From Dehalococcoidia bacterium (GTDB lineage Bacteria > Chloroflexota > Dehalococcoidia > UBA6926), in assembly GCA_965207895.1 (NCBI GenBank), contig CBDBNN010000003.1, positions 451,755 through 515,754 of the forward strand: 64,000 nt of DNA, written 5' to 3'. The translations under genes and the position numbers were made by a program. Below, one piece after another: positions 12,746-32,298 of the stretch. The notes beneath the pieces were generated by a model. That model ran no database searches. It had not been told where the DNA came from and was given only the letters and a program-made list of their open reading frames with translations. Each line of letters begins with the position of its first letter. Position 1 is the stretch's first letter.

Positions 12746-12916
12746 TCAGATAGCGATATCTTTCAGATATTCCTTGAGGTTCTTGGTCATGCTGCGCAGA
12801 GAGACTGCCGTAATTGATGCCGAGATGCCACCACCCGCAAGGGGAACTAGTTTGCCAAGTCCTTTCGCGAACGAGGTCTTTGTCAGCCGCACGCCGATCG
12901 TGCGGAAGAGGGCATA
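12746..12916 (-). pseudogene. displaced C-terminal fragment of an EcsC-family gene (56-codon ORF, below the track cutoff)
   Basis: Translation MPSSAPIGVRLTKTSFAKGLGKLVPLAGGGISASITAVSLRSMTKNLKEYLKDIAI resembles the glycine-rich C-terminal segment I recall for EcsC-family proteins. It begins immediately after, and in the same frame as, the recombinase stop codon. The matching N-terminal part is at 31174-31890. Confidence 0.4.
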
Positions 12917-12946
12917 GCGAAGCGGGATATAGAGTGGCGTCGCGGT

Positions 12947-14563
12947 CAGTCGGAGTTTGGCGATGCGATACGCGGCGTTTGAGTCTCTTGTTTGGCAATC
13001 GACACTACATCCTCGGTCGGGATGGCCAAGGTCAGTTCGACGTTGTTGCTCCCGTCGATGGTGGCCCCGTCCAGGAGCAGCCCCAGCGCCTCCTTGCGCT
13101 CCTCGTCGGTCAGGTCGTCAAGCCTGCCGCCGAGCCGGTGTGCCCACTCGACGATGTGCTCGCCCAGCGCCCGCTTCTCCGCCTCGGCCATCTCCCTGGC
13201 TCGGTAGTCGTCCAGCTTCAGCCGGAGCGTCTCCAGCCGTTCAGTGATGAACTTGCGCTGGCGGTCGAGCTGCTTCTCGGTGATCTTCCCCGACACGTAG
13301 AGCCTTATGGCCCGGTCCTCCTCCAACTGCACCTTTTGCAACTCCCGCTCCGCAATGGCGATCTCCTCGACCAGCTCGCCGTTGTCCGCCCGCGAGTCCA
13401 TGGCCTCGATGCCGGCGACGATGACGCCGGGGTTCTCCAGCACCTTCTTGACCTCGCCCCAGACAAGCGCCTCAAGCCGCTCGGCCCTGATGTTGGGACG
13501 CTCCCGGCATTGCACGCCCTCATTCTCCATTCCGTAGCACCGGTAGTAGCGGCGGGGGGTGTCCAGGTCGTAGATGTAAGCCTTGCCCTTTCGCCTGGAG
13601 GTCTGGCGTCTCGTCCCACGGCAGCCCATGAGGTACCCGCACTCGGCGCACCTGACCAGGTGCTGCAAGAGATAGAAGAGCTTGGTGTTGCGGCCCGAAC
13701 GGGTCAGACGCTTCTTCTTGGTCTCCTGCGCCAGGTCCCATATCTCCTCGTCCACCACCGGGGGGAAGGGCACCTCGACCCACTCGTCCTCGGGTCGGTC
13801 GTACCGCCTCATCCCGTTCTCGGTGGCGACGTGGCGGCGCTTGCCGAAATACCAGGTGCCCTTGTATGCCTCGGTGCGTAGGATGCGGGTGACTATGGCG
13901 TCGTACCAGGGACCGACGGCCCTGGGCGTGGGGACGCCCTCGGCATTCAACTGCTTGGCGATGGCCGGAGCGCCCATGTCTTCGCGGACGTACATGCGGA
14001 AGACGCGGCGTACGACCTCGGCCTCCTTCTCCACGATCTCCGGCCTGCGGTTCTCGCTGAGTTCGTAGCCGTAGGGGACGTTGTTGACAGGGATGCGGCC
14101 CTGCTTGGCCGAGCCCCGCTTGCCCATCGAGGCCCTCTCCCGGAAGTTGTCCAGCTCGATCTTGCCGATGGCCGCCATCAGGCCGAAGGTCTTCATGTCG
14201 ATGGCGTCAAGGACAGCTTCCAGTTCTATCTGGTACGCCTCGACGACCTCCATGAGAGCGGCTGCGGGGTACATGCCCCGGCTGAGCCGGTCGGACTTCC
14301 AGCAGACGATGGTGTCGAAACGTCCCTGGCGGGCGTCGGCCAGCATCCGCTGGAACTCCGGGCGGTTCTTGGACCATCCTCTGCCCACCTCCTGGTAGCG
14401 CGCGGTAATGGTCAGTCCCCTGCGCTCGCAGTGGGCCTCCATGTCGCTGATCTGCTCGGAGATGGAGGTCTTGTCCTCCGTGTCCTGGCTCTTGTCCGAG
14501 ACGCGGGCGTAGATGGCCGCCCGTTTCGTTCCCGTCTGCCTATCGGTGGTACTCGTCGCCATG
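12947..14563 (-). CDS. large serine recombinase (phage-type serine integrase)
   Basis: N-terminal resolvase domain with catalytic AAIYARVSDKSQ, a recombinase domain, a Cys-rich zinc-ribbon region (CAECGYL...C...C) and a coiled-coil C-terminus. Start set to ATG MATSTTDRQ with AGGAGG 6 nt upstream. The longer track ORF is read-through. Confidence 0.9.
12991..13010. repeat. left copy of terminal imperfect inverted repeat (candidate att half-site)
   Basis: 16/20 match to the reverse complement of 31288-31307. Confidence 0.4.
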
Positions 14564-14590
14564 TCTGCCTCCTGTCGTGTCCCTGAAATA

Positions 14591-14622
14591 AAGAAGACCC
14601 GCCTCCTGTCGGGAGCGGGTCT
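14591..14622 (-). promoter_or_regulatory. stem-loop followed by a T-tract immediately upstream of the integrase RBS (terminator/attenuator-like)
   Basis: Minus strand reads gacccgctcccgacaggaggcgggtc then cttctttatttc, then the RBS and ATG of the integrase. Confidence 0.35.
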
Positions 14623-14900: not shown

Positions 14901-15188
14901 TTACCAGATCCGATACCAGCCGGGGCTGACCACGGACATGATCCCCATGACGAGGATTGCAGCCATGGTAAGGACCCCAACGGCCCAGGCCGCCCCCAGG
15001 TCCCCGCTCAATCGCCACGTGGCCAGGAATGTCAAAGCGCCGCCAAGGACAGCCCAGGGGAGGACGCCGCTCTCAATGATCCATATGGCGATCAGAATGG
15101 CAGAGACTAGACCCGCTCCGACGAGCAGATATGCAGCCGCCAAGTTATCGGTCCCAGCGCTGCTTCGGGCTGAACGCCGTCGCCCCAT
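14901..15188 (-). CDS. small two-TM membrane protein
   Basis: Strong RBS AAGGGAGG 7 nt upstream of the ATG. Two hydrophobic helices (LAAAYLLVGAGLVSAILIAIWII, VGVLTMAAILVMGIMSVV). Confidence 0.45.
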   Translation of the reverse strand: MGRRRSARSSAGTDNLAAAYLLVGAGLVSAILIAIWIIESGVLPWAVLGGALTFLATWRLSGDLGAAWAVGVLTMAAILVMGIMSVVSPGWYRIW

Positions 15189-15383: not shown

Positions 15384-16589
15384 TCACTCCTCCCGGTCGT
15401 TTCCCGAGAGTGCGCCTCGCAGCTCTATCGCCTGCCGCGTCCGGTCGAGTTCCGCGGCTAGGATCGTCTCCTCTGGCAGGGTGATGCGGTACTCCCCGGC
15501 CATGACGTTGTTGGGCAGGCCGTCGAGGGCGTACCGCGCCAACGCCTCGTCCTTCTCGGAGCAGAGGATGAGTCCCACGGGCGGGTTCTCGCCCTCTCGA
15601 ACCCAGTGCTCCCGCGCGTAGTTCAGGTAGAGGTGCATCTGTCCGGCGTCGGCGTGGGTGAACGCCCCGATCTTCAGGTCGATGACCACGAGACACCGCA
15701 GACCACGGTGGTAGAAGAGCAGGTCCACCCTGTACCACCTGTTGCCGATGCGCAGGCGCCTCTGCCTGCCCATGAAGCAGAAGTCGTCCCCCAGCTCCAT
15801 GAGAAAGGTCTCCAGGTGGCGGATGAGCGCGTCTTCAAGATCGCTCTCGGAGTACTCGTCCTTGAGGCCGAGGAACTCCAGGACGAAGGGGTCCTTGATC
15901 TGCTCCTGGGGCAGCACGGCGTCTTCGGCATTGGGCTTCCGTCCCGACGTGAGCATGGCAGCCTTGTTCTTGGACAGGGCGGTGCGCTCGTAGAACTGGG
16001 AGGCGATCTGTCGGTCTAGCTGACGGACCGACCACCCTCCCCTCAGCGCCTCCGTCTCGTAGAACTCGCGGGCCTGCTCGTCCCTGACCGACAGCAGCCT
16101 CACGTAGGCCGACCAGGGCAACGGGAAGGCTGACAGCAGGTCTTCGAAGCCTACGCCGTCCGATGCGGTCATGAATTCTCCCGACGCCGTCGAGAGAATC
16201 CTCTGTCGATGGGATGAAGCCGATTTTCCCGACACTGTCGGGAGAATCCGGTCAGACGGGAACGAGAGGTAGAAGAGACGCATCTTGTAGATGCCCTGGA
16301 GGGAGAAGCCCCGACCGAACCTTCCGGTCAGGTCCTCAGCCAGTCTCTCGATGAGCGCCGCCCCGTACTCGGCCCGCTCCTCTCCCGACTGCTCGAACTC
16401 GACGATGCGACGTCCTATCAGCCAGTACGCGGCGGTCATGGCGGCGTTCACCGACCGAGCGGCAGAGTCTCTGGCCGCGTCGATGATTCTCGACACGTCT
16501 CCGAAGACAGCCTCGTACGGGGCGTCGTGACTGAGGGTTGAACGCCTCAGTGATGGCTGATTGCGGTTGGGGGACATCTCGGATGGCAT
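15384..16589 (-). CDS. DUF1016 (YhcG/RhuM-like) PDDEXK-fold nuclease family protein
   Basis: C-terminal block RVDLLFYHRGLRCLVVIDLKIGAFTHADAGQMHLYLNY matches the restriction-endonuclease-like core of DUF1016 proteins (D...D/E-x-K arrangement: DLLFY ... IDLK). Confidence 0.75.
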   Translation of the reverse strand: MPSEMSPNRNQPSLRRSTLSHDAPYEAVFGDVSRIIDAARDSAARSVNAAMTAAYWLIGRRIVEFEQSGEERAEYGAALIERLAEDLTGRFGRGFSLQGIYKMRLFYLSFPSDRILPTVSGKSASSHRQRILSTASGEFMTASDGVGFEDLLSAFPLPWSAYVRLLSVRDEQAREFYETEALRGGWSVRQLDRQIASQFYERTALSKNKAAMLTSGRKPNAEDAVLPQEQIKDPFVLEFLGLKDEYSESDLEDALIRHLETFLMELGDDFCFMGRQRRLRIGNRWYRVDLLFYHRGLRCLVVIDLKIGAFTHADAGQMHLYLNYAREHWVREGENPPVGLILCSEKDEALARYALDGLPNNVMAGEYRITLPEETILAAELDRTRQAIELRGALSGNDREE

Positions 16590-16813
16590 CAGGCTTCCTC
16601 CTCCAAGTGGTTGTCCACTTGGACGTCCGGGAGCGCGTCCTTCTCGGACTCCGCTTGCCCGTCGCCGGCCGAGGGCCTGAGCAGCAGGGTGAAGAGACGG
16701 AGCAGCCGGTCCTCGGCGTCGGGTGCGGGCCTGGAGATGACCCTCACCTCCCCAAACTCCGAGAAGTCCTCTTCGGGCATCCGTCGCACTTTCGGTCTCC
16801 TCTTGTCGTTCAT
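16589..16813 (-). CDS. small ORF (73 aa, MNDKRRPKVRRMPEEDF...) translationally coupled to the DUF1016 nuclease
   Basis: Its TGA stop overlaps the ATG of the nuclease (TGATG). A diverged paralogous copy at about 18310-18095 lacks a stop, so that copy is decayed. Substitutions between the copies are enriched at third codon positions in this frame. Confidence 0.3.
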   Translation of the reverse strand: MNDKRRPKVRRMPEEDFSEFGEVRVISRPAPDAEDRLLRLFTLLLRPSAGDGQAESEKDALPDVQVDNHLEEEA

Positions 16814-17060: not shown

Positions 17061-18095
17061 AGGTGGTCGGCGAGCAATCTGTTGAAAGGGTGGAGTTCGG
17101 TCGGCAATGACAAAAGCAGGCTTGAGGTGGGGGTGCATGACGCGGCCCAAATCGGCGGCCCGATGACAAAAGCGGCCAAAAGATGCGCTTGAGGTGGGGG
17201 TGCGTTACACCGGGCGAGACATCGCAAGAAACGCGGACCTGGTGGAAGGCAAAGCTGAAACGAGTTTGCGGGGAAGCAGGAAACTGCCATAGAGACGACC
17301 CAACACGGCCTCTAGGACAGCAAAGACCTGGAGCACATGTACCCCATGAGGCCCGGTCAGCTGGCACCACGCGGCGCTTTACGACACGCAGAGAGCGCGG
17401 GGCAGAAGCGAGGTTGCGTCCAGGGTGTGGCGGGCGCTCACGCAGAGGTGGTTGTGGCGGTAGTTGTGGAGCAATACGTTGCCCAAGGTCGCGCTGGAGC
17501 AATATCCGGGGTGGGGGCACGCATGGGGTCTTCTTGGTCTCGCAGATCGGTGATAATGACCTCACTGTTTGGCTTTCTCCAAGGTTTCCGACCACAGAAA
17601 CCTGGGTGCGTGATCCCTGTTGCACGGGCTTCGCCCAAGAGGGAATGCTGGCGATGCGGAGTTTGACGTTGGTCCTCCGCAACCAGCGCGGGCCGGATCG
17701 ACGGAGTTGACGCAGGGGCCTCCGTTTTCGGTCCAGTCCAGCGGGTTGGAGTTTGACGTTGGTCCTCCACTCGAAGGACATCTGCCTGACGTTCGGCGTT
17801 GATCGCTCCCTCCGTTGGGCACCGGTCTGACGGCTGGGGTTGATCGCCTCGCAGTCTGACCAGGGGGACGACGTGTTAGCGCATCGTCCCCGGCAAACTG
17901 GCCAAAGTGCGCCTGTCGCTTTGGCCAGTTCAGCACGTCTGCGGGATGGCTGGAACGCAGCCGCACCGCAGCTTCCGCACGCAGTTGATGGGGTGCGGTC
18001 CTGGCTGAGGGTTGACCGCCTCGCCGGAGACAGATGACGTTCGGATGCCAATGCTAAGTTGGAATTGACCCACCCCGATAGCGGGCGCATTGGGC

Positions 18096-18560
18096 TTCTG
18101 CCTCCAGGTGGTTGTCCACGAGTCGGTGATCCGAGGGCGGGTCCTTCTGGGACTTCCGCCTGCCTCTCCTCGTCCGTGGGCCTGAGCGGCAGGATGAAGA
18201 GGCGGCGCAGCCGGCCCTCGGCGTCGGGGGCAAGCCTGGAGATGACCCTGACCACGCCGCATTCGGAGAATCCCTCCTCGTGTATCCGTTGTCCGCTCCG
18301 TCTGCTCCTGTCGTTCATCACTCTCTTCACCGGGCTCGCGTGAGCCCCAAAAGGGCTATCAATGTCGGTCTGAATGCCATTGAGTCTGGGGAGCCGAGGG
18401 GCGAAAAAACACGGTCCGTGAGGGGGGCGCTCGCGGGATGCTCCCTCACGAGGTCTCCATCCCAAATGGCCGGATGTGATGTACTACCCGTGTACAAGGA
18501 AATGCGCCGGTTGCATAAATGCAAGTCGGTGGTGAGTTCGTAGCTGAATCAGGTTGGAGT
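18096..18560. repeat. copy B of the diverged ~450-bp duplication
   Basis: See copy A. Confidence 0.6.
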
Positions 18561-18775: not shown

Positions 18776-19705
18776 ATGAACGAGGCAGAGTTGAACGGCA
18801 CGCGGGTTGAGGAGACCCAGGATGGCGGGAACCAGGACACCGACGTGTTGGACGATGAAACCCTGACGAGCGAAGTCGGGGACGGTGACGACGCGGACAA
18901 GGAGCGGATGCGGCGGCACAGGTTGAGGGGGTTCCTGCGGGAGCTGGTGCGGGAGGAGGGCCGGATGGAGGCTGCGGAACTACTGGGCGTTGCCTACCGC
19001 ACGCTGGTCAAGGCCGAGGAGACCGGCGAGATCACGGGACGCATGGGCGACGCCATCGAACGGCTGTCGAGCGCGGGCGACAGCCCGGAGGTGAAGCGGC
19101 TCAGGGAGTCGGTCGGAATGGTCGAGGAACGCATGGCCGCGTTGGAATCCGGCATGGGGGCGCTGGGGAAGGAGCTCCGGGACGGACTGGACAAGTTGCG
19201 CATTGCGGCGGCCGGCAAGTCCGATGCCGAGGGCGGCGGCGAGGAAGGGACCCAAGCGGAGGACGCGGGTGAGAAGAAGGCGGGCCGGTCGGAGACCGGG
19301 GCCGCACCTCCGGTGGCGGGCCTGCGCCCCAAAAAGCCCTTCAGGGAGCGGCGCAAGGAGCCCGAGGTGGTCACGGTGAAGCCTGCCGACGACGACCGGG
19401 AGGTCTACGGCAAAGCCTGGCCGCTCATCGAGGAGTGGCGCAGCCTGCGGACAGGTCACCCCAATGAAGGCAAGAGCCTGTCGTGGCTCACGACGCATGA
19501 GCGGCTGCTCGTGCTGGAACTGGCGATGCTGGAGGAGCACGGGCTGACCCTGCCGCCGGAGAAGCAGGCGCTCAGGGGGTTCGGGCGCAGTGGCCAGACC
19601 ACCTGGCGGTGGACGGCGCTGGCGGACACGAGGAAGTCCCTGGCAAGGCGGGAACTGCTGCGCTGGGTGCGCCGGGTCCTCACCGTGGGACTGTGGCGGG
19701 AGTAG
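18776..19705 (+). CDS. hypothetical DNA-binding protein with putative HTH and coiled-coil/charged regions
   Basis: Strong RBS GAGGAGG before the ATG. Segment AAELLGVAYRTLVKAEETGEI resembles an HTH. Flanked on both sides by related repeats (gctgctaaa ... cggagcgag(c/t)gatt). Confidence 0.55.
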   Translation: MNEAELNGTRVEETQDGGNQDTDVLDDETLTSEVGDGDDADKERMRRHRLRGFLRELVREEGRMEAAELLGVAYRTLVKAEETGEITGRMGDAIERLSSAGDSPEVKRLRESVGMVEERMAALESGMGALGKELRDGLDKLRIAAAGKSDAEGGGEEGTQAEDAGEKKAGRSETGAAPPVAGLRPKKPFRERRKEPEVVTVKPADDDREVYGKAWPLIEEWRSLRTGHPNEGKSLSWLTTHERLLVLELAMLEEHGLTLPPEKQALRGFGRSGQTTWRWTALADTRKSLARRELLRWVRRVLTVGLWRE

Positions 19706-19931
19706 GCCCCGGAGCCTGCCTTCGGGGCCGGTTTTCGGCGGCTGCTAAAGCGCAGCGACATGGGCGCTAACTCGGAGCGAGTGATTCACGCTGGGTTGAC
19801 CTGAAACCCCTTCCGAAGCCTTCCATTGCCTGTCCGACCAGGCGATAATTGACGCAGTTTCTGGCTTTTCCAGCGTTTCGTGCCGAGAAACCTGGAGGGT
19901 TCCCGTCCCCCGAATCCGGGACCGGCTGCAT

Positions 19932-21907: not shown

Positions 21908-21915
21908 GCGCAAAG

Positions 21916-23003: not shown

Positions 23004-26000
23004 TGCCCGCTCCGGCGGCTGGCAAGCTCGACTATCCGGCTGGCCAACTCCTCCAGCTGGTCTTCGGTGTAGTCGCCCTTGGGTCTGAGTTCGCGCTTGA
23101 TGTCCCGGCGCATCAGCCGCCTGACATCCTCGTTCACATGCCAATCCACGACCCTGCTGCGCTGGGCGACGACCGACTCGATCCTCAGGGCAACGCTCCT
23201 GGCCTCCTCATCTATCTGAACGTGGTAAACGCCCTGCTCCTCTGCGATGTGCCGGGGAGGAACCTCTCCATTCTCCGGGCGTCTTTCCAGCAGCGCGTAG
23301 ATGGCGAAGGAGGTGGGTGAGAGACCGAACTCCGCCGCGATGTCGGCCTCGCTTCGCATCCGTCCCCGCACCTCAGCGTAGCGCCGGCACGCCTCGGCAG
23401 CGTCTATCACCCTGTTGCGCAGATCGTCGATGATGCGGGCCAGCTGTTCGGACAAGCGCTCGTAGAATGCGGGATTGTCTCCCAGACTCTCGTGGATCTG
23501 GGAGCGGATGGCGTGCTCCATGATGGACGCCCGCGCCTCGTCGTGGGGCAGGGCGGCGATCTTCTGGTCGAAGTCCCGGTCGAGGATGGACACCGGCCGC
23601 ATCATCTCCCGCACCTGGGCGCTGATGCGCTCGTCCACCAGCTTCTTCACCTTGGCCCCAATCTCCGTCCAGTCGATGTCGGCGTCCTCGCGAAGGAATT
23701 GGGCGCGCACGTAGGCGCGTATCTCCGTGAGCCGCGCCAGCCGGTCCGTGTAGTCCAGCGCGCGCGGGTCCGGCAGGAATCGGTCCATGAGACGGGAGAA
23801 ACCCCGGTAGTCGGCGTTGAACCGCTCGAATACGTGAGCCTTGAGGTTGCCCTCGGTGCTGGCGTCGGGCGCGAAGACGCTGACGCACGCCCAGGTGTCG
23901 CTCAGGTCCCGGCCCTTGAAGTGTGACTCGGCCTGGACGGCCGCGGCCTCGACGACCGACGCCGGGTCCTCGTCCATCTCCTGCATCGTGCCCTGCACAT
24001 CCGACCAGTCGAATGTTGAAAGAACGTCTTCGAGGTCCCGAGATACGCCGTGGTAGTCCACGACCAAGCCGTGGGTCTTTTCGGTCTCCGCCCCGTCCTT
24101 TCTATGCGAGAACCGGCGGTTGACCCTCGCAACGGCCTGAAGCAGCCCGTGCTCCCGCAGCGCTCTATCCAGGTAGAGCACCTGCTCCACGGGCGCGTCG
24201 AACCCGGTCAGCAGCATGTCCACCACGACCAGCACCTCCGGCTCGCCCTCCGGATCGACGAAGGCGCTTTCGACCTGTCCCTGGTCGAGTTCGCGCGCCG
24301 CCTTGAACTCCGGCCCGTCGTTTGGGGCTGTGGTGATGATGGGATAGGCGCTGAGGCCGAAATCCTTCAGTCGGCTGGCGTACCGGAGGGCGGCTACCCG
24401 GCTGGGCGCAACCACCTGGGCCTTGAACCCGTTGGGGCGAATCTTCGCCTTGAAATGCTCGGCGATGTCTAGGGCGATCATCTCGATGCGTCGCTCCGCC
24501 TCAGCCACCGTCTCTTTGTTGGCGTAGCGTCGGCGAATCTGCGCTTGGACAGCGGGCGGCTCGTCGCCGAACATGGCATCGTAGAGCTTGTCCAGGGTCT
24601 CCGGCCCCTCGATGGCAAGCTCGGGCAGGCGCGCCTCGTAGAAGATGGGCACCGTCGCGCCGTCGGCCACCGACTGGGGGATGGTGTAGGTGTCGATGAG
24701 CGAGCCAAAGCGCCCTATGGTGTTGCGCTTGAAGCCCTTCTCTATGGGCGTTCCGGTGAACCCGATGAGCGCCGCGTTGGGCAGCGCTTTGGAGAGCCGT
24801 CCCCCGAGGATGCCGTACTGCGTGCGGTGCGCCTCGTCCACCATGACGATGACGTTCTCCGAGGCGTTGAGCACGTCAAGCTCGCCCTCGGGGGTCGTCA
24901 GCGCCTCCTCGAACTTCTGGATGGTCGTCATGATCGTGCGGCCCGCGCCCGTGGTGAGCAGACGACGCAGGTCCCGGCTGGTCGCCGCCCGCTCCGGCGC
25001 AGGGAAGCCGCAACGCTCGAAGGTGCCGGTGATCTGCCGGTCCAGTTGCGTGCGGTCGGTCACCACGACAATCGTGGGATTGCCCAGACGAGGCTCCCGA
25101 CGCAGCCTCGTCGCCAACCACAGCATGGTCAGGGACTTGCCCGAACCCTGCGTGTGCCAGACCACGCCGCCCCGTTCCTCCGGCTTCAGGCCGGTGAGCA
25201 ATCGCTCCAACCCAGCGCGAACCGTGCGGTACTGCTGGTAGCGTGGCAGCTTCTTAACCACACGTCCCCGCTCCGGCTCATAGACCACATAGTCGCGGAG
25301 GATGTCCAGCAGGGTTGCGGGAGGCAGCAGGCCGACGATGAGCTGGGCCTGCCCCTGGGGTTCGACCCCGTACCTCTGCCTCACGTCGTCCTCGGAATGG
25401 CTCCCAAGCCATTTCCACTCGAAGTAGGCGTTCTCCGGCGCGCCGATGGAGGCGTACGCGGCAGCGGCCCCGCAGTGTGCGACGCACAGCAGGTTGTAAT
25501 GGAAGAGCTCGGGAGCGCCGCTCCCGCGCCACTCCGGCCCTGCCTCCTGGTAACGTCGCAACTGCCGCACCGCGTTGGTCTTCCACACGTCCAACAAGGA
25601 AGGCGACTTCGCCTCCATCACCACTAGGGGGATGCCGTTGACGAACAGCACGATGTCGGGAATGACCATGCGTTCGTCGTCCTCGGCGCCGCCTCTCTCG
25701 TTGGCGCGGCGGACGCGGAACTGGGTGGTGACGACGTACTCGTTGAGTCCGCCTTCAGGATGGTCGAAGTCGAAGAAACGAACGATCCGCGAATCCCTGC
25801 CCTGCGGCCCGTCAACGGTCAAGGGCTTGCCATAGGTCAGATACTCGTGGACCGCCTGGTTGCGGCCCATGCCGGTGGCGTCGATGTGCTCAAGGTCGAA
25901 GATGACCCGCCCGGCCTGGGCCTCGGTCATCCATTCGTTCAGACGAAGCAGGGCCGCTCTCAGGCGCCCCTTCAAGAGCACCTCCCGCTCGTCGCCTCGC

Positions 26001-26131
26001 TCCGCCGCCAGCGCCTCGCGCGGCACGTAGGTCCAACCCAGCTTCTCCAGCAAGCGCCTCGCTGGGTCCTCGGCGTGGTTGAATTCGTTGAGCTTGGAGG
26101 GTGTGGTCATAGGACTCCTAGCTACCCTCAT
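23000..26131 (-). CDS. hsdR: Type I restriction enzyme R subunit
   Basis: N-terminal nuclease motif (PDIVLFVNGIPLVVMEAK), SF2 helicase motifs (WHTQGSGKSLTM; VIVMVDEAHRTQ) and a long C-terminal domain. The start may be the internal MTTPSKL (about 26110). Confidence 0.95.
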   Translation of the reverse strand: MRVARSPMTTPSKLNEFNHAEDPARRLLEKLGWTYVPREALAAERGDEREVLLKGRLRAALLRLNEWMTEAQAGRVIFDLEHIDATGMGRNQAVHEYLTYGKPLTVDGPQGRDSRIVRFFDFDHPEGGLNEYVVTTQFRVRRANERGGAEDDERMVIPDIVLFVNGIPLVVMEAKSPSLLDVWKTNAVRQLRRYQEAGPEWRGSGAPELFHYNLLCVAHCGAAAAYASIGAPENAYFEWKWLGSHSEDDVRQRYGVEPQGQAQLIVGLLPPATLLDILRDYVVYEPERGRVVKKLPRYQQYRTVRAGLERLLTGLKPEERGGVVWHTQGSGKSLTMLWLATRLRREPRLGNPTIVVVTDRTQLDRQITGTFERCGFPAPERAATSRDLRRLLTTGAGRTIMTTIQKFEEALTTPEGELDVLNASENVIVMVDEAHRTQYGILGGRLSKALPNAALIGFTGTPIEKGFKRNTIGRFGSLIDTYTIPQSVADGATVPIFYEARLPELAIEGPETLDKLYDAMFGDEPPAVQAQIRRRYANKETVAEAERRIEMIALDIAEHFKAKIRPNGFKAQVVAPSRVAALRYASRLKDFGLSAYPIITTAPNDGPEFKAARELDQGQVESAFVDPEGEPEVLVVVDMLLTGFDAPVEQVLYLDRALREHGLLQAVARVNRRFSHRKDGAETEKTHGLVVDYHGVSRDLEDVLSTFDWSDVQGTMQEMDEDPASVVEAAAVQAESHFKGRDLSDTWACVSVFAPDASTEGNLKAHVFERFNADYRGFSRLMDRFLPDPRALDYTDRLARLTEIRAYVRAQFLREDADIDWTEIGAKVKKLVDERISAQVREMMRPVSILDRDFDQKIAALPHDEARASIMEHAIRSQIHESLGDNPAFYERLSEQLARIIDDLRNRVIDAAEACRRYAEVRGRMRSEADIAAEFGLSPTSFAIYALLERRPENGEVPPRHIAEEQGVYHVQIDEEARSVALRIESVVAQRSRVVDWHVNEDVRRLMRRDIKRELRPKGDYTEDQLEELASRIVELASRRSGQ

Positions 26132-27086
26132 CGAAAGTAGTTGAACTCCAATGACTGGCTACCCTAAGCACGTAATCGGCACAGATTATGGCATTCAGGG
26201 CTTGCCTGCTTGTATTGTATGCAGCAAAACCGTGACTAGCCGCATGGCGATTCGGTGTCGGACTGTGCCTGATTTCTTCCAGGTTCTCGCTCTCCACCCG
26301 AGCGTAGAGTTCGTGCATGATGTATTTGATGACGACCCACTCGTGGCGACCATCCCAGATCAAATTTCTAAACGGTGTATGACCTACTCGCTCCTGGATT
26401 TCTCCGTACTGCCCGCTCTTCGTTCCTTCGATACCGAGCAAGTCCTCACGAATCACTTTCTCGATTAGAGGCAATACTCCGTAACAGGCTGAGCGAAAAT
26501 AACCTAGCCTATAGACCTCCAACGCTTCACGGACCGCGCTCTTGTCTTCGTCATCTACTGAGTAATCCGATAAGCGCGTGGATATGTCTTCAACTATCTC
26601 GCTTGTACATTCACTGTAATACCGGTCTACGAGGTCGCTGAACGTGCTCTCGTCGTAACTTGAGTCGTCCAAGAACTGTGCAAACGGAACAGTTCTATAT
26701 GGGAGCCATCCGGTGGTTGTGCTTGCCTCTTCCATTCGTTGTTCAAATGCAAATGGATTGGGAAGCTTCAGCACGTCCAACGAGGGGAGCCAGGTGTTTG
26801 GCTGCAAGGTAATCTGGGTTATCTCTGATATGGCCCCCAATTGTTGTGTCAACAGGTGAGCCATAAGGGAAGTCATGCGACTCTGGTCAAGGATCGACTG
26901 TAGACCGCTCGTCATGTGTGCCAACGAGCTTTGCCATCTACCCAATTGCCCTTCCATGATACTGGCCTGAATCTTGAAGGAGTCATCCCACAGCTTGCTG
27001 AATGACGCTGTTATCTGATTCATATCGCTCATCACGTGACGCAGGTCCTCATGGGAGGTACCGCGAACATCATCTTCAGTGCTCAT
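26118..27086 (-). CDS. hypothetical protein on an AT-richer segment inside the R-M operon; possible HEPN-like (R-x4-H) protein
   Basis: Clean 322-codon ORF with 14-nt and 4-nt overlaps with neighbours. C-terminal NRHAASHG fits the Rx4-6H HEPN signature. Composition is clearly AT-richer than hsdS/hsdR. Confidence 0.6.
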   Translation of the reverse strand: MSTEDDVRGTSHEDLRHVMSDMNQITASFSKLWDDSFKIQASIMEGQLGRWQSSLAHMTSGLQSILDQSRMTSLMAHLLTQQLGAISEITQITLQPNTWLPSLDVLKLPNPFAFEQRMEEASTTTGWLPYRTVPFAQFLDDSSYDESTFSDLVDRYYSECTSEIVEDISTRLSDYSVDDEDKSAVREALEVYRLGYFRSACYGVLPLIEKVIREDLLGIEGTKSGQYGEIQERVGHTPFRNLIWDGRHEWVVIKYIMHELYARVESENLEEIRHSPTPNRHAASHGFAAYNTSRQALNAIICADYVLRVASHWSSTTFDEGS

Positions 27087-28351
27087 AGCTGCTTTGCCGC
27101 CGTCCTTCCATGCATACGAACGCGACCCGTCAGCAGCGCCTCTGACGCCGATCCCTTCAGTGCTTGCAGCCTTTCCCGCTCCTCGTGCCCCTGCTCAATG
27201 GCCGAGTCTACGCCAGTCAGCACTGAGGCGATGGTCTGCTGCTCTCGCAACGCCGGAAGTGGAATCGAAAGAGAGTTTGTAGCACCCAGCGTCAGGCCAA
27301 AGCGAGTGACTCCATTGGCGATGCGAGCAAACCGGCTTGCCGTCCGTGGAGACCCTAGTAGCTCAGCCAGATACGCGCCATCGGCTAGCTCCATGCGCGG
27401 TCGTGCCAATCCCAGGTGATAGCCACACAGGACTGTTGGCATATCCGCAGTCACATAGGCGGGAATCCCGATTTCATCTGGCGTTTCCGAGTCCTTCGTG
27501 AAGAGAACGTCGTTCTTCCGCAACGCCCATCGGTCACACTCAACCGGGCTAGCGGTCGCAGCCATAAAGCGCATTCCAGGTCGGATTCGGCGACTGTAGA
27601 AGACATCCGTGTAGTTGCAGAGTTCAACCGGAACCTCGCCGTCCACGGTTCTCTTATCGACGCTACTGAAAGCTACCTCCGTCACATCCCCCAGCCGTAC
27701 CACCTCCCAGTTCGCCGGTATCGTCCCGATGCCCGGCGCTTCCTTCCACTCTGTGTGCCAGCCGGGGACACCGCGGGTGAGGAGTTCGTGTAGTAGAGAG
27801 TCGCGCAGTTGCTCGGTGGCGGCGATGGCTGCATCCGTCCTCTCGATTGCTTCATCGATGCCGTCCAGCACGGCGGCGATGGCCCGCTGTTCGGGTAGTG
27901 GGGGGAGTAGGATGGGGAGATTGCGCAAGTGTGTCCAGGATGTTCTTGGCATCTTGGTCCCACCGACTCCACGCATCGCGTATTCATAGGTCTGGTCGCC
28001 ACGAAGCAAGTGACTGAGAAAGGAACTGTCTGCCTCGCTGCCACCGAATATGGCGAGGATGTCGGTCGAGCAAACGCCGTCAAACTGTGCTCGAATCACT
28101 TTTCTCAGGTTTGGACGAAGCTTCCCGTAAAGCGTGTCACCCTCTCGGAAGAGAGTCTTGTTGCTGATCGACTCTCCCGCTCTTCCGTACCCGTTCAAAG
28201 CCCCCTCAGCAATGATGTGTTCAAGGGCAATGTAAGGCCGGTGATCGTGTTTCGTGGGTTTGACTTGCTCCATGCGGAGATTCGCCACATCCCCCAACTG
28301 CACTACCTGCCAGCCGTCGGGTATCGTCCCATTGTCTCCTGAACGTCCCAT
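27083..28351 (-). CDS. hsdS: Type I restriction specificity subunit (two TRDs)
   Basis: Two target-recognition domains each followed by the conserved L-x-x-L-P-x-L-x-E-Q-x-x-I block (LPPLPEQRAIAAVL; LPALREQQTIASVL). Confidence 0.9.
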   Translation of the reverse strand: MGRSGDNGTIPDGWQVVQLGDVANLRMEQVKPTKHDHRPYIALEHIIAEGALNGYGRAGESISNKTLFREGDTLYGKLRPNLRKVIRAQFDGVCSTDILAIFGGSEADSSFLSHLLRGDQTYEYAMRGVGGTKMPRTSWTHLRNLPILLPPLPEQRAIAAVLDGIDEAIERTDAAIAATEQLRDSLLHELLTRGVPGWHTEWKEAPGIGTIPANWEVVRLGDVTEVAFSSVDKRTVDGEVPVELCNYTDVFYSRRIRPGMRFMAATASPVECDRWALRKNDVLFTKDSETPDEIGIPAYVTADMPTVLCGYHLGLARPRMELADGAYLAELLGSPRTASRFARIANGVTRFGLTLGATNSLSIPLPALREQQTIASVLTGVDSAIEQGHEERERLQALKGSASEALLTGRVRMHGRTAAKQL

Positions 28352-28359
28352 CGGTCTCT

Positions 28360-28710
28360 TCAGTTACCTTCGTCCGTGGGCGGGCGTATCTCGTGGATGG
28401 TCACCGGAAGTCCTGCCCGCTTAGCTTCCAGCCAGCGTTTGAAGGAACGCTGGCTTTCTCCGGAGGGCCATCCTCCCAACAGCATTTCCACGCTGATGTC
28501 CTCATCCAGGGCAGGCCAGTGGATGCCCTCGCCAGCGCCTATCAGCCGCCAGTTGTGGCGTTCCTCAGGCGTGGCGTGGATGAGCCTGGGATACCAGGAC
28601 AGTGGCACCGACACGGTCCGCCCGTCGGAGAGCTCTGCGGTCAGGGTATCGTCGGTCACCTCGACCGTCATGGCCTCCGGCACACTCACCTTAAGCGTTG
28701 AAACGTTCAT
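28360..28710 (-). CDS. DUF2442 family protein
   Basis: Size and sequence pattern of DUF2442. Overlaps the DUF4160 gene by 20 nt, the usual pairing. Confidence 0.65.
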   Translation of the reverse strand: MNVSTLKVSVPEAMTVEVTDDTLTAELSDGRTVSVPLSWYPRLIHATPEERHNWRLIGAGEGIHWPALDEDISVEMLLGGWPSGESQRSFKRWLEAKRAGLPVTIHEIRPPTDEGN

Positions 28711-28927
28711 TCCAAGCCTCCAGAAACGAATTCTGATTTTCCTCGACTATCTTCTCGATGCGGCGTATCTCATGCCGCCTCAATCCGCCTGTCTGTTGAA
28801 GCCTGACCGGCTCCAGCCAAAACTTGGCGATGCGGTCATCGCGTTCGACGTGAATGTGGGGAGGCTCTCCCCGGTCGCTCGCGTAGAAGAAGAACCGGTA
28901 CGGCCCCTCCCTCAGTATGACCGGCAT
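28691..28927 (-). CDS. DUF4160 family protein
   Basis: MPVILREGPYRFFFYASDRGEPPHIHVE is the hallmark N-terminus of DUF4160. Confidence 0.7.
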   Translation of the reverse strand: MPVILREGPYRFFFYASDRGEPPHIHVERDDRIAKFWLEPVRLQQTGGLRRHEIRRIEKIVEENQNSFLEAWNERFNA

Positions 28928-28942
28928 GGTCCACCAAGCCTC

Positions 28943-30469
28943 CTATCTGGCATAGCCCATCTCCGCCAGAAGTTCGTCCATCCTGGCCACCGCCTCATCC
29001 CGCCGCTGCTCCGCCTCTCTCAGTTGAGCCAGCGCCTCCTCTACCGGCATCACCTCAACCGGTTCCGTGGTGTCCACGTAGCGGCTGATGTTCAGGTTGA
29101 AGTCGTTGCCCTGTATCTCCTCAAGCTCTGCGACGTGGGCGAATCGCTTCACGTCCTCGAAGTCCCTGTACGCCTCAACGATCCTGCTTATGTGCTCCGG
29201 GTCGATGAAGTTTTGAGCCTTGCCGGGACGGAAGTAACCCTCTTGGGCCGCGTCCACGAACAGCACCTTCCCCCGCCTCTCCACAGGCTTGGCCTTGTTC
29301 AGCACGCAGATGGCGACGGGGATGCTGGCCCCGAAGAAGAGATTTGGGGTTAGGCCGATCACCGCCTCGAACAGGTCGGCCTCAACGATGCCCCGCCGTA
29401 TCCTTCCCTCCGCTCCGCCACGGAACAGGATTCCGTGGGGCATGACCACGCCCACCATGCCCTGGGAGTTGGTCACTCCCAGCATGTGCAGCAGGAAGGC
29501 GAGGTCGCCCCTGGTTCTGGGCGGCGTTGCACCGTAGCGGTCAAAGCGGTGGTGCGGGTCGTTGGGAGCGAAGTCATGCCCCCAGTTTTTGAGGCTGAAG
29601 GGAGGATTGGCGATAACCCGGTCGTAGGACAGTAGCCGTCCTGACTGGTCCACAAGACCCGGCTCCGCTATCACGTCACCAGCCTCCAATCGACCGGCGC
29701 GGAGCCCGTGAAGGAGCAGGTTGAGCTTGCCGATTGCCAGAGTACCGAGGTTCCGCTCTTGGCCATGCAGCGCGAGGTTCCGGTAGTCTCCGCCCTGTTC
29801 CCGCACGTACTGCGCCGCATAGATGAGCATCCCCCCGGAACCGGCTGTCGGATCGCAGATGCGCATCCCTTCTCGGGGTTGGAGTAACTCGATGATGAGC
29901 CGCACCACCGAGCGGGGCGTGTAGAACTCGCCGCCCTTCTTGCCGGCGTCGTCGGCGAACCGGTTGATCAGGTACTCGTAAGCGTCTCCCAGCACGTCAC
30001 CGCCCCCTGCCGCGTCCCTGCGCAGGTTCTCGTCGCTCAGGTCCAAGTCGCCAAAGTGGTTCAATAGGCTGCGGATGATGCGCTCCCGGTTGGCCGGACT
30101 GCCCAGCTTCGACTCGTCGTTCCAGTTGTTCGGAGCCAGTACGCCTTCCAGCCTGGGGTTGGCCTCTTCAATCGCATGGCTGGCCACGTTGAGCGCCTCT
30201 CCCAAGCCCATGGTGGCTCCCAGGAGAGTGGTCCATCGGGCGGATTCAGGGACGAAGAACTCGTGCTCGTCCTGGTCGGTGAGCGCAACCTCACGGGCAA
30301 CGCCCGACTCCACCGCGCCCTCAACCTCCTCGTCGAAGCGGTCGGAGAGCCGCTTGAGGAAGAGGATGGAGAAGATGTAATTCTTGTAGTCGGCGGCGTC
30401 GATCTGCCCGCGCAGAATGTCGGCGGCCTGCCACAGCTTGGACTCAAGCTCCTGTTTAGTGAGTGGCAA
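28943..30469 (-). CDS. hsdM: Type I R-M N6-adenine DNA methyltransferase subunit
   Basis: N-terminal HsdM_N block (LWQAADILRG ... YKNYIFSILFLKRLSD), AdoMet motif and NPPF catalytic motif. Confidence 0.95.
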   Translation of the reverse strand: MPLTKQELESKLWQAADILRGQIDAADYKNYIFSILFLKRLSDRFDEEVEGAVESGVAREVALTDQDEHEFFVPESARWTTLLGATMGLGEALNVASHAIEEANPRLEGVLAPNNWNDESKLGSPANRERIIRSLLNHFGDLDLSDENLRRDAAGGGDVLGDAYEYLINRFADDAGKKGGEFYTPRSVVRLIIELLQPREGMRICDPTAGSGGMLIYAAQYVREQGGDYRNLALHGQERNLGTLAIGKLNLLLHGLRAGRLEAGDVIAEPGLVDQSGRLLSYDRVIANPPFSLKNWGHDFAPNDPHHRFDRYGATPPRTRGDLAFLLHMLGVTNSQGMVGVVMPHGILFRGGAEGRIRRGIVEADLFEAVIGLTPNLFFGASIPVAICVLNKAKPVERRGKVLFVDAAQEGYFRPGKAQNFIDPEHISRIVEAYRDFEDVKRFAHVAELEEIQGNDFNLNISRYVDTTEPVEVMPVEEALAQLREAEQRRDEAVARMDELLAEMGYAR

Positions 30470-31088
30470 CTAGCGCCTCTCCCATTGATGTGTATACGGC
30501 CCTGCGGCCGATGTCATGGATTACGGAGTCCCTAAGTGTCTCGCGTCGCAGGCGGGCGACCTCGACCGCCGCAACGTAGGCATCCTCGGACACCTCCACG
30601 AGTCTGGCCACTGCATCAAGCTCTCCGTCGGACAGTAATGGAATCTCGATCTCTCCCAAGCTACGTGCGGATAGAGTCGTCACCGTGGCGTTGACCACCA
30701 GCCGCTTGGCGAGTTGCGCTCGGCCCTGGGAGGAAGTGAGGAAATACCAGAGCCAGTGTCCCAAGCCGGATTCGGGTCGCTTGGGCCGCACCACCAGCAA
30801 GGTTACACCTGCAACCGTACGCGACACGCCGGGTGGCACAAGCGCGGTCTGAAGCGACCCTGCGCGGGCCGTCACCAGTATGTCGAAGGGTCTCAGCAGG
30901 TGGCGCTCGGTGCGCAGGGTGCGCACGACTCCCACTTCCCGAAGACCGTGTGATTCCAGCCAACCGTCGTCACGCAGGTCGCCGCTCTCGACGATGCGGA
31001 GCATCCAGTCGCCGCGTTGCGATCCGGCCCCGCGTCCAGCTTGGGCGAGGCCCTGGTGTACATGGGCGAGGTCTGCAACACATGCCAT
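30456..31088 (-). CDS. HsdS-like protein with a single target-recognition domain (half-S)
   Basis: FDILVTARAGSL ... VVRPK ... WLWYFLTS ... IEIPLLSDGELDAVARLVE follows the TRD plus conserved-linker pattern of HsdS. It is only about 210 aa and overlaps the hsdM start. Confidence 0.5.
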   Translation of the reverse strand: MACVADLAHVHQGLAQAGRGAGSQRGDWMLRIVESGDLRDDGWLESHGLREVGVVRTLRTERHLLRPFDILVTARAGSLQTALVPPGVSRTVAGVTLLVVRPKRPESGLGHWLWYFLTSSQGRAQLAKRLVVNATVTTLSARSLGEIEIPLLSDGELDAVARLVEVSEDAYVAAVEVARLRRETLRDSVIHDIGRRAVYTSMGEALVATH

Positions 31089-31173
31089 GCGAGTAACATA
31101 GCAGTGTATGGCTATTCAGTCAATGCTTGACATTGTTACAGGGTCAGTAAGCTGCCGAACATAGGAACATGGC

Positions 31174-31890
31174 CTAGCCTCGCCTCCAAAGCTTACCTCG
31201 TCGGGCCGGAGAGGTCTGTAAGGCTACCCTACCTTCTATCGATCCTCGGCTGCTTCCAAATCGGCTGTCCATGAGAACCGTATTTTTTTGTGTCCGCTTT
31301 CGTGTCGATTGGCAGACGAAGAAGGACTTTGATGCATACGCGATCTCTCTCAGGCTGTCAGTCGCCTGGCGTACCCCGAAGACTGCGCCGACCAACAGCC
31401 ATATCCTGACCTCTGTTTCCTCGTTCAGCTGCAGAACACCCTCCTCGAACAGGTCGTCCCACCCATACAGGTACATCAACTTCTGGGCGCATACCACCGC
31501 ATGCCAATTGAGTTGGGCAATGTCTGCCGGAAGCGTCGCTGCCATCAGCCATCCCCCAGGCAGACCGGCGGCGAAGGAAACGCTGGATGACTTGACGATA
31601 TGCGACATGATGATCGCATCGGCCATCCGGTCAAGCGTTTCCATAGGCACGCCGGCCGCAAGAGGCGTTGTCGCGATCGCCTTCCCGACCTCGATGCTGT
31701 TCTGGGCATAGTAGCGATCCAGCTGTTTCCCCAGGAACGTTCTGCGGTCCACCTTCAGTCCTGGGATAGCCGTCATCGCAGGCAGCAGCCGTCGCAGAAT
31801 GGGGTGAGAATGACTATCCCCACGCCCGTTCTTGCTCTCACTTTCCACGCCGCCATCCTCGTCTTGCGTCCGCGTTGATATGTCGGTCAC
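31174..31890 (-). pseudogene. EcsC-family gene, N-terminal part, disrupted by the integrative element
   Basis: The first ~190 residues look protein-like (AAGLPGGWLMAATLP ... LMYLYGWDD). From about residue 192 the ORF reads low-complexity junk (STRKRTQKNTVLMDSRFGSSRGS...). The displaced C-terminus is at 12746-12916. Confidence 0.45.
31288..31307. repeat. right copy of terminal imperfect inverted repeat (candidate att half-site)
   Basis: 16/20 match to the reverse complement of 12991-13010. Confidence 0.4.
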
Positions 31891-32291: not shown

Positions 32292-32298
32292 CGTTCAT

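What the first reader, a model, noticed from the sequence alone, without database searches (positions are those of the whole stretch)
12746..31890. ~18-kb integrative element inserted into an EcsC-family gene by a large serine recombinase
A large serine recombinase (12947-14563) sits at the left edge of the element. To the right, the ORF at 31174-31890 looks like a genuine protein for about 190 residues and then degenerates into low-complexity read-through, which is the pattern expected for a gene interrupted by foreign DNA. A 56-codon ORF at 12746-12916 starts immediately after the recombinase stop codon, in the same frame, and has the composition of a real protein C-terminus (GKLVPLAGGGISASITAV...). 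I think it is the displaced C-terminal end of the same EcsC-family gene. The two ends also carry an imperfect 20-bp inverted repeat (12991-13010 versus the reverse complement of 31288-31307, 16/20). That relationship is what is expected between the host-derived or phage-derived half-sites of attL and attR of a serine integrase. Everything between the ends is accessory: Type I R-M, DUF1016 nuclease, repeats, multi-HTH regulator. So the element looks like a defence-carrying integrative island.
Basis: partly seen in the sequence, partly recalled or inferred. Interest (0 to 1): 0.7.

Follow-up and report, generated by a model that had tools for sequence, protein, structure and literature searches.

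The report
Mobile defence island splitting a gene
An 18.3-kb mobile DNA element carrying a restriction-modification defence system was inserted by its own large serine recombinase into a conserved gene of an uncultivated Dehalococcoidia bacterium; this is a well-understood kind of element, mapped here to the base pair.

Summary
An 18,342-bp element (window 12983-31324) plus a 2-bp crossover core (TC on the minus strand) splits a 266-codon gene inside codon 189. A related genome has the same gene order (moeB/thiF, the gene, cysK, lspA, rluD, gltX) with the gene intact and no element, and the two host blocks abut there with exactly 2 bp of overlap. The reconstructed attP is the most symmetric site in the window and is centred on that TC. 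The same right end, 100% identical over about 240 bp, is joined at the same TC to two other genes in other assemblies, so the element is mobile and uses several target sites. Corrections: the C-terminal fragment has 78 codons and starts 36 nt upstream of the recombinase stop, in another frame. The recombinase ORF therefore crosses attL. The gene does not hit Pfam EcsC directly. Not all of the interior is accessory: recombinase, DUF1016 nuclease, a small ORF, a 309-aa protein, a conserved RNA-like motif and a 4xHTH regulator form a backbone shared by many Dehalococcoidia elements. The Type I R-M block is the cargo. This is a new member of a known kind.

The parts
12746..12982 (-). Displaced 3' part of the split host gene (codons 189-266 plus stop). 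The first 36 nt overlap the last 12 codons of the recombinase in another frame.
   Evidence: tblastn of the rebuilt protein: residues 189-266 at 12982-12749, 100%. Alignment to intact homologues.
12958..13005 (-). attL. Reading the minus strand: element-derived P arm 13005-12983 (GTGTCGATTGCCAAACAAGAGAC), 2-bp core TC 12982-12981, host-derived B' arm 12980-12958.
   Evidence: Comparison with the empty site in L001. The P arm is conserved at the 3' end of the recombinase gene in 80 related loci, and sequence diverges right after the core.
12946..14562 (-). Large serine recombinase, 538 aa, with the YARVSDKSQ catalytic-serine motif. The ORF runs across attL, so its last 12 codons are host DNA.
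   Evidence: Pfam Resolvase 4e-24, Recombinase 1e-21, Zn_ribbon_recom 2e-10. PHROG 95 integrase 6e-102. Distant match to the solved SPbeta integrase structure.
14901..15188 (-). Possible 95-aa hydrophobic protein. This segment (about 14800-15350) is absent from the near-identical element in L003.
   Evidence: GC frame plot. Gap in the L003 alignment. No significant family hit.
15384..16589 (-). DUF1016/YhcG PD-(D/E)XK nuclease (PADLOC candidate defence family PDC-S02). Part of the conserved backbone.
   Evidence: Pfam YhcG_C 2e-56, DUF1016_N 6e-41. PADLOC PDC-S02 1.6e-134. 78-87% nt identity in more than 30 related loci.
16589..16813 (-). Small ORF (74 aa, MNDKRRP...VRVISRPAPDAEDRLLRLF). Its stop overlaps the DUF1016 start codon. 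It is a conserved partner of this recombinase family and a candidate accessory or directionality factor (inference).
   Evidence: tblastn: present on the same strand upstream of the recombinase in 58 of 80 loci. No Pfam or PHROG hit.
17998..18553 (-). Diverged second copy (79%) of the segment 16524-17040, which holds the small ORF and its upstream region. It lies in a 1.8-kb stretch (16950-18775) with weak coding signal.
   Evidence: Repeat families D1, D7, D11, D12. Alignment A2. Frame plot.
18776..19705 (+). 309-aa protein of unknown family. Backbone gene; its C-terminal part is conserved in many related elements.
   Evidence: Frame plot. blastn hits for 19342-19705 in more than 20 loci. No Pfam, PHROG or PADLOC hit.
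19863..19976 (+). Conserved non-coding motif of about 115 nt; candidate structured RNA. A repeat of its last hairpin follows 47 nt downstream.
   Evidence: Near-invariant across elements whose recombinases are about 65-70% identical. 95.7% of cells paired against 25-58% when slid, and compensatory changes at 7 pairs. The covariance model finds one strong copy per element in 20 of 81 sources. No Rfam family.
20747..21907 (+). Regulator with four Xre-type HTH_3 domains. Backbone gene.
   Evidence: Pfam HTH_3 4e-28 in 4 stretches. Frame plot places the start near 20747. Conserved in related loci.
22275..31088 (-). Cargo: a Type I restriction-modification locus.
- YgjP-like metallopeptidase, 22275-about 22990
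- HsdR, 23000-26131
- unknown 322-aa gene, 26118-27086
- HsdS, 27083-28351
- DUF2442, 28360-28710
- DUF4160, 28691-28927
- HsdM, 28943-30469
- HsdS-like half protein, 30456-31088
   Evidence: Pfam. PADLOC REase_I 1e-133, Specificity_I 2e-49, MTase_I 1e-144. Shared only with L003/L082-L085, where hsdS and the neighbouring gene are swapped.
31302..31349 (-). attR. Reading the minus strand: host-derived B arm 31349-31327, core TC 31326-31325, element-derived P' arm 31324-31302 (CTTCTTCGTCTGCCAATCGACAC).
   Evidence: Homology to L001 ends at 31325. Homology to the same element in L082/L083 starts exactly at 31326.
31325..31890 (-). 5' part of the split host gene (codons 1-188 and two bases of codon 189). 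The ORF then reads 49 element-encoded codons to a stop at 31174.
   Evidence: Alignment to intact homologues. 91% nt identity to L001 over 31325-31930.

Best explanation
Window 12983-31324 is an integrated mobile element. Its own large serine recombinase (LSR) inserted it by conservative site-specific recombination between an element site (attP) and a chromosomal site (attB) inside a conserved 266-codon gene that is distantly EcsC-like.

Shown:
- The staggered cut fell at a 2-bp non-palindromic core (TC), which is now present once at each end (attL and attR).
- The attP site lies at the very 3' end of the recombinase gene. After integration the recombinase therefore ends in 12 host-encoded codons.
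- The host gene is split in codon 189, so no full-length product can be made.
- The element has two parts. A backbone of about 9 kb holds the recombinase, a DUF1016 nuclease, a small ORF, a 309-aa protein, a conserved RNA-like motif and a 4xHTH regulator. The cargo is a complete Type I restriction-modification system with small embedded genes.
- The same element end is joined to other genes in other genomes, so the element moves and can use several target sites.

Inferred, not shown: that excision still occurs, which protein is the directionality factor, how the element passes between cells, and that the cargo protects the host.
For: Empty site:
- L001 (GCA_965243495.1) has ThiF, an intact 266-aa gene, PALP(cysK), LspA, RluD and GltX.
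- Window blocks 7001-12982 and 31325-31930 map to adjacent L001 positions with a 2-bp overlap.
- attR matches attB up to ...AAAGTC, and attL matches from TCAAA....

Restored ORF:
- It aligns gap-free with six intact homologues of 82-91% identity.
- All eight members of the closest protein cluster are uninterrupted at the junction; the truncated allele occurs on one contig only.

attP symmetry:
- 16/24 about the TC, the window maximum, reached at 6 of about 63,800 positions.
- A search of the whole window for the reverse complement of the P arm at the right spacing with the same dinucleotide gives one hit, 18,308 bp away.

Recombinase: three LSR domains are present.

Mobility:
- The right end is 100% identical over about 240 bp and is joined at the same TC to a helicase gene (L082, L084) and to an Amidohydro_2 gene (L083).
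- In the Amidohydro_2 case, joining the host flanks of L083 and L003 restores MDYKYISSDDHMDLCYVPP.
- The L003 backbone is 99-100% identical over 15.8-23.3 kb.

Family: the P arm is conserved at the 3' end of the recombinase gene in 80 related loci, and sequence diverges straight after the core.

Cargo: a complete Type I R-M system.
Against: - No excised circle, attP junction or same-strain empty site was seen. Exact scans of JGI metagenomes and IMG/VR for either arm found nothing.
- No directionality factor, relaxase, replication gene or packaging gene was recognised.
- The closest recombinases (89-95% identical) sit in other genes, and this attB resembles theirs only weakly. This insertion could therefore be a secondary-site event.
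- This attB has weak internal symmetry, 9/24.
Confidence: 0.9

Rival explanations
1. The recombinase has relaxed specificity and works more like a TnpX/TndX-type transposase or a 'multi-targeting' LSR. The EcsC-like gene would then be an incidental secondary site, not a dedicated attB.
For: - Recombinases at least about 90% identical to this one sit at four sites in three gene families. These are helicase site 1 (L002, L004, L005), helicase site 2 (L007, L008), Amidohydro_2 (L003) and the EcsC-like gene (window).
- An identical P' end is joined to three different B arms.
- The EcsC-like target was seen only once.
- Durrant et al. (PMC10083194) call a 90%-identity LSR cluster multi-targeting when it uses more than 3 target gene clusters.
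Against: - Six loci from different genomes use exactly the same dinucleotide in the helicase gene, so specificity is not loose.
- The recombinase variants differ: the window and L003 genes are about 89% identical in nucleotides, and their P arms differ at positions -2 to -7. Each variant may have its own site.
- Only 3 gene families are used, not more than 3.
- DUF4368, typical of the multi-targeting clade, was not detected.
Confidence: 0.3
2. The element is an immobile remnant: it was inserted once and can no longer excise.
For: No directionality factor was identified. The interior holds a diverged duplication and 1.8 kb of weak coding signal. No excised form was found.
Against: - The recombinase ORF is intact and both arms are preserved.
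- The backbone is 99-100% identical to a copy at a different site in another genome.
- The right end is 100% identical in four other contigs. Both observations indicate very recent movement.
Confidence: 0.07
3. It is a prophage or phage satellite rather than a non-viral integrative island.
For: LSRs are common phage integrases, and PHROG 95 'integrase' matches. The Xre-type regulator resembles phage repressors.
Against: No capsid, terminase, portal, tail or lysis family was found among the ORFs scanned with Pfam and PHROGs. The element is only 18.3 kb. There was no match in IMG/VR for the attP arm.
Confidence: 0.03

Closest known systems
Intragenic LSR-integrated elements such as SPbeta (SprA, in spsM), the Bacillus skin element (SpoIVCA, in sigK) and A118-type Listeria prophages (in comK). 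These examples are from my own knowledge.
   Same: A large serine recombinase with Resolvase, Recombinase and zinc-ribbon domains. Insertion inside a coding sequence. A 2-bp core. attP of about 50 bp with inverted arms. The gene is restorable by precise excision. The SPbeta integrase is the best solved-structure match.
   Different: - This element has no phage or sporulation context and carries a Type I R-M system.
- The host is an uncultivated Dehalococcoidia bacterium.
- The recombinase ORF itself crosses attP.
- No directionality factor is recognisable.
- Sequence identity to characterised integrases is low: the match covers only residues 57-333, E 7e-20.
LSR and attachment-site catalogue of Durrant et al. 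2022 (PMC10083194), including 'multi-targeting' LSR clusters
   Same: The logic is the same: attB is inferred from an empty site in a relative, the target genes are disrupted, and close LSR relatives sit in different target genes.
   Different: This clade lacks DUF4368 and does not target short AT-rich motifs. It reuses exact sites in GC-rich coding sequence. I could not check whether this clade is in their database.
Defence systems carried as cargo of integrative mobile elements (general concept, from my own knowledge)
   Same: A complete Type I R-M system, a PDC-S02/DUF1016 nuclease and small embedded genes travel on a self-integrating element.
   Different: The DUF1016 gene belongs to the conserved backbone, not to the variable cargo. 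No defence phenotype has been tested.

Membership tests
Large serine recombinase (serine integrase) | N-terminal resolvase catalytic domain with the serine nucleophile motif | tested here: met
   Pfam PF00239 4.3e-24, residues 62-203 of the 585-aa ORF. The YARVSDKSQ and SDRLSRG motifs can be read in the sequence.
Large serine recombinase (serine integrase) | C-terminal Recombinase domain plus zinc-ribbon domain | tested here: met
   PF07508 1e-21 and PF13408 2.1e-10. PHROG 95 integrase 5.9e-102.
LSR-integrated element | attL and attR share only a short (2-bp) non-palindromic core, with no longer target duplication | tested here: met
   The host blocks overlap by exactly 2 bp (TC) against the empty site in L001.
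LSR-integrated element | Reconstructed attP of about 50 bp with inverted arms centred on the core | tested here: met
   16/24 symmetric positions, the window maximum, reached at 6 of about 63,800 positions. 12-nt arms lie 11 nt from the core on each side.
LSR-integrated element | Uninterrupted attB in related genomes, and a restored ORF on joining the flanks in silico | tested here: met
   L001 synteny and intact gene. Gap-free alignment of the rebuilt protein.
LSR-integrated element | The same element found at independent sites or genomes (mobility) | tested here: met
   An identical right end is joined to helicase and Amidohydro_2 genes. The backbone is 99-100% identical in L003.
LSR-integrated element | Recombination directionality factor and a detectable excised circle | not testable with these tools
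   No recognisable RDF. The small ORF found upstream of the recombinase in 58 of 80 loci is only a candidate. No attP junction in the public scans. No reads were available.
EcsC protein family (Pfam PF12787) | Significant match of the protein to the EcsC HMM | tested here: not met
   The rebuilt protein and both fragments have no EcsC hit at E<=0.01 or E<=1.
EcsC protein family (Pfam PF12787) | Homology through intermediates to proteins that match EcsC | tested here: inconclusive
   P0020 (34% identity, 88% coverage, E 9e-32) carries PF12787. 3 of 12 aligned members hit it, best E 1.6e-6.
Type I restriction-modification system | HsdR, HsdM and HsdS all present and full length | tested here: met
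   Pfam HSDR_N/SWI2_SNF2/T1RH-like_C, HsdM_N/N6_Mtase and Methylase_S. PADLOC REase_I, MTase_I and Specificity_I.
Prophage | Virion structural, packaging or lysis genes | tested here: not met
   None among the ORFs scanned with Pfam and PHROGs.
ICE / integrative mobilisable element | Relaxase, type IV secretion or coupling protein, or a recognisable oriT | tested here: not met
   No such Pfam family in any ORF of at least 200 aa in the element. oriT cannot be tested.
Multi-targeting LSR (Durrant et al. 2022) | One 90%-identity LSR cluster integrated in more than 3 target gene clusters; often has DUF4368 | tested here: inconclusive
   Four sites in three gene families among recombinases about 90-95% identical to this one. 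DUF4368 not detected. Definition read.

The most novel reading that the evidence does not exclude
The window element may be one member of an abundant, undescribed family of modular LSR elements in uncultivated Dehalococcoidia (318 relatives, several copies per genome). In this reading:
- A fixed backbone, which includes a new structured RNA and a 4xHTH regulator, is retargeted by exchanging the recombinase/attP end.
- Sister clades insert specifically into the recombinase genes of other elements and into a helicase gene next to ubiquitin-like system genes, which would amount to competition between elements.
- Because the recombinase ORF spans attP, the enzyme carries a different C-terminal tail when integrated than when excised. 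That difference could act as a built-in sensor of state.
Probability: 0.3. Interest if true: 0.6.

Novelty: new member of a known kind. Interest (0 to 1): 0.35.

Why it matters
- It gives a base-pair-exact attP/attB/attL/attR set for a recombinase from a lineage with no genetic tools.\n- It shows recent horizontal movement of a Type I R-M system between Dehalococcoidia genomes.\n- It yields natural examples of one cargo with an identical P' arm placed at three different GC-rich coding sites by recombinase variants about 90% identical. That is useful material for studying how serine integrases change target specificity.\n- As biology it is an ordinary case of a known mechanism.

Tried and rejected
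- Join at the 7-bp direct repeat CGCGTAT (31342-31336 and 12974-12968). It is in frame and looked convincing. Alignment to intact homologues shows it deletes 8 codons (ASKSNAAY). The repeat is part of the host gene.\n- Join at the 8-bp repeat CGACTGAC (31364 and 12952). It is out of frame (read from the sequence).\n- Direct Pfam EcsC assignment: no hit.\n- Search for attR in the 80 related loci by P-arm reverse complement with matching dinucleotide. Only the window gave a true hit, because the elements extend beyond the 10-kb flanks.\n- Exact-protein look-ups of window proteins (DUF4160, the 210-aa protein, P0007): not on record.\n- Exact scans for the P' arm (JGI metagenomes, IMG/VR) and for a degenerate P arm (JGI metagenomes): no match.\n- Rfam at gathering and E<=1 thresholds over the non-coding stretches: nothing relevant.\n- Single-sequence folding of the conserved motif: z = -1.1, not significant.\n- Literature search for LSR, attB and Chloroflexi: no paper.\n- Looking for a shared motif among the three attB sites by eye and by register-matched comparison. 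Only weak similarity was found, CGTA at -14 to -11 in two B arms. No conclusion drawn.
Full report
**Observation**

All the genes concerned lie on the minus strand. ORF and Pfam scans show a large serine recombinase (LSR) at 12946-14562, with Resolvase, Recombinase and Zn_ribbon_recom domains. To its right lie:
- a DUF1016/YhcG nuclease;
- a 309-aa protein;
- a four-HTH regulator;
- a complete Type I R-M locus: a YgjP-like peptidase, HsdR, an unknown 322-aa protein, HsdS, DUF2442, DUF4160, HsdM and a half-HsdS-like protein.

ORF 31174-31890 and the sequence ending at 12746 were the proposed halves of one gene.

**Is it a split gene?**

My first in-silico join used a 7-bp direct repeat (CGCGTAT). 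It gave an in-frame 258-aa protein. A protein search with that sequence found intact proteins of 266-278 aa with 82-91% identity from Chloroflexi/Dehalococcoidia assemblies. It also found the truncated 238-aa ORF itself, on a single contig.

The alignment showed my join had removed 8 residues. The intact sequence reads ...SLREIAYASKS|NAAYRIAK.... The repeat belongs to the host gene. The true crossover lies at a TC dinucleotide (minus strand) at 31326-31325 and 12982-12981.

The rebuilt protein maps as residues 1-188 at the right end and residues 189-266 at 12982-12749. The C-terminal fragment is therefore 78 codons, not 56. It starts 36 nt upstream of the recombinase stop and is in a different frame.

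**Empty site**

The contig encoding the closest intact homologue (L001, GCA_965243495.1) has ThiF, the intact gene, PALP(cysK), LspA, RluD, GltX and ROK. This is the same order as in the window. blastn maps window 7001-12982 and 31325-31930 onto adjacent L001 positions with a 2-bp overlap. attR follows attB up to AAAGTC, and attL follows it from TCAAA.

The element is therefore 12983-31324 (18,342 bp) plus the 2-bp core. All eight members of the closest protein cluster are uninterrupted at the junction.

**Attachment sites**

Joining the element ends gives this attP: GTGTCGATTGCC-AAACAAGAGAC-TC-CTTCTTCGTCT-GCCAATCGACAC. Its symmetry about the TC is 16/24. That is the highest value anywhere in the window and is reached at only 6 of about 63,800 positions. 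The TC position had been fixed independently, from the homologue comparison.

As given they match at 6/20 positions; with the right arm moved 9 nt they match at 15/20. attB itself is only weakly symmetric (9/24).

**Mobility**

A scan of species-representative genomes with the recombinase found 318 relatives. The best 80 are all in Dehalococcoidia or Chloroflexota MAGs, often with several per genome. None has the EcsC-like gene within 10 kb.

In all of them the P arm (coding V-S-I-A) sits at the 3' end of the recombinase gene. Similarity stops right after the core dinucleotide.

L003 (OZ242299.1) carries a backbone 99-100% identical to the window over 15.8-23.3 kb. Its recombinase gene, however, is only about 89% identical in nucleotides, and 14.8-15.35 kb is missing.

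I then used a homologue of the 210-aa gene next to attR to fetch the far end of that element and three further contigs. In each of the contigs that reach the junction, the roughly 240 bp from TC-CTTCTTCGTCTGCCAATCGACAC inward are 100% identical to the window. Homology breaks exactly at the TC.
- In L082 and L084 the flank is a helicase gene.
- In L083 the flank is ATGGACTACAAGTACATC. Joined to the L003 attL flank, it restores MDYKYISSDDHMDLCYVPP..., the start of an Amidohydro_2 gene.
- Contig L085 begins at that TC.

One attP-bearing element has therefore integrated at three or more sites, each time at a TC core.

**Specificity**

The recombinases closest to the window's (89-95% identical) sit mostly in one exact site of the helicase gene (...GACGAGGTC-GA-TTACAGC...). 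A more distant clade uses the same dinucleotide in the opposite orientation, with GA as its core.

The EcsC-like attB resembles the helicase attB only weakly. The EcsC-like gene may be the dedicated site of this recombinase variant, or it may be a secondary site. By the criterion of Durrant et al. (more than 3 target gene clusters per 90% LSR cluster), this clade is borderline, with three gene families and four sites.

**Anatomy**

Comparison with the 80 loci separates backbone from cargo.

Backbone:
- the recombinase;
- DUF1016;
- a 74-aa ORF found upstream of the recombinase on the same strand in 58 of 80 loci;
- the 309-aa protein;
- a conserved non-coding block;
- the 4xHTH regulator.

Cargo: the Type I R-M block, shared only with L003 and L082-L085. 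There, hsdS and the gene next to it are exchanged.

No phage structural gene, relaxase or replication gene was recognised. The route of transfer between cells is unknown.

**'EcsC'**

Neither the rebuilt protein nor its fragments match Pfam EcsC. Distant homologues do: P0020 carries PF12787, and 3 of 12 aligned members hit it, best E 1.6e-6. 'Distantly EcsC-like' is the most that can be said.

**Side finding**

The non-coding block holds a motif of about 115 nt (19863-19976, plus strand). It is almost invariant among elements whose recombinases are only 65-70% identical.

Adding divergent copies, the predicted three-hairpin structure keeps 95.7% of cells paired, against 25-58% when partners are slid. 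It shows compensatory changes at 7 pairs. These probably reflect few independent events, and single-sequence folding is not significant (z = -1.1).

A covariance model finds one strong copy per element in 20 of 81 sources, always on the strand of the 4xHTH gene. Rfam has no match.

**Verdict**

It is a new member of a well-known kind: an LSR-integrated, defence-carrying island inside a gene. The family-level features could be worth a dedicated study, but they are only partly established here. They are:
- exchange of the recombinase end between otherwise identical elements;
- sister clades that target other elements' recombinase genes;
- a recombinase ORF that spans attP;
- the conserved RNA-like motif.

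Noticed in passing
window 19863-19976 (+); second hairpin copy about 19979-20013: Non-coding motif of about 115 nt, nearly invariant across related elements. The predicted three-hairpin structure has some compensatory changes. No Rfam family matches. There is one copy per element, always between the 309-aa gene and the 4xHTH gene. It could be a structured RNA or a protein-binding or ssDNA site.
   Followed up: partly
window 12946-12982 (-): The recombinase ORF crosses attL, so its last 12 codons (QTPRIASPNSD*) are host DNA. In the circular form the ORF would instead end in 27 P'-encoded residues (PSSSANRHESGHKKIRFSWTADLEAAEDR). In L003 the integrated tail is more than 100 aa. The enzyme's C-terminus therefore depends on integration state and site.
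   Followed up: partly
L032-L059 and L062-L074 (loci): Sister clades of this recombinase family are inserted inside the Resolvase domain (...IIESVDEFYSEN|) or the Recombinase domain (...ILRNEVYTGT|) of a different serine recombinase gene. These are elements nested in other elements' integrase genes.
   Followed up: partly
L002, L004-L009, L010-L031, L034, L082, L084: A Helicase_C-containing helicase gene is a hot spot. Two clades use the same GA/TC dinucleotide (...VWDEV|DYSVY...) in opposite orientations, and L007/L008 use a second site about 100 codons downstream. In L082 the gene lies next to Prok_Ub, Prok-E2_D and ThiF genes.
   Followed up: partly
window 12946-15800 versus L003: Mosaic structure. 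The backbone is 99-100% identical to L003 from 15.8 to 23.3 kb, but the recombinase gene is only about 88-92% identical and 14.8-15.35 kb is absent in L003. The recombinase/attP end looks exchanged between otherwise identical elements that sit in different targets.
   Followed up: yes
window 16524-17040 and 17998-18553; 16950-18775: About 520 bp is duplicated directly (79% identity), including the small ORF and its upstream region. The duplication lies in 1.8 kb with little codon-position GC signal, yet this stretch is about 80% conserved in L036-L043. It could be a decayed gene copy or further non-coding function.
   Followed up: partly
window 31931-33530: A patch of 48% GC holding a 391-aa HNH-domain protein (32299-33474, -) lies between the split gene and moeB. 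L001 has only a 161-bp intergenic spacer there. This is a second, independent small insertion.
   Followed up: partly
window 34471-36107: Between moeB and tRNA-Arg the window has a DUF433 protein (34548-35255, +). L001 has an N6_N4_Mtase and a 197-aa gene at the same place. This is a third variable islet at this locus.
   Followed up: no
window 26110-28280: Within the R-M cargo, hsdS and the gene between hsdS and hsdR differ from the otherwise 93-94% identical copies in L082/L083. The window has an unknown 322-aa protein in a 52% GC stretch; the other copies have DUF6414 there. This looks like a cassette swap that changes specificity.
   Followed up: partly
L085 position 1: One metagenome contig begins exactly at the TC core of attR. 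That would be expected if the assembly graph branches at the attachment site because the population is mixed.
   Followed up: no
window 28360-28927 (-): An overlapping DUF4160/DUF2442 gene pair is embedded between hsdM and hsdS. It is conserved in all copies of this R-M locus.
   Followed up: no
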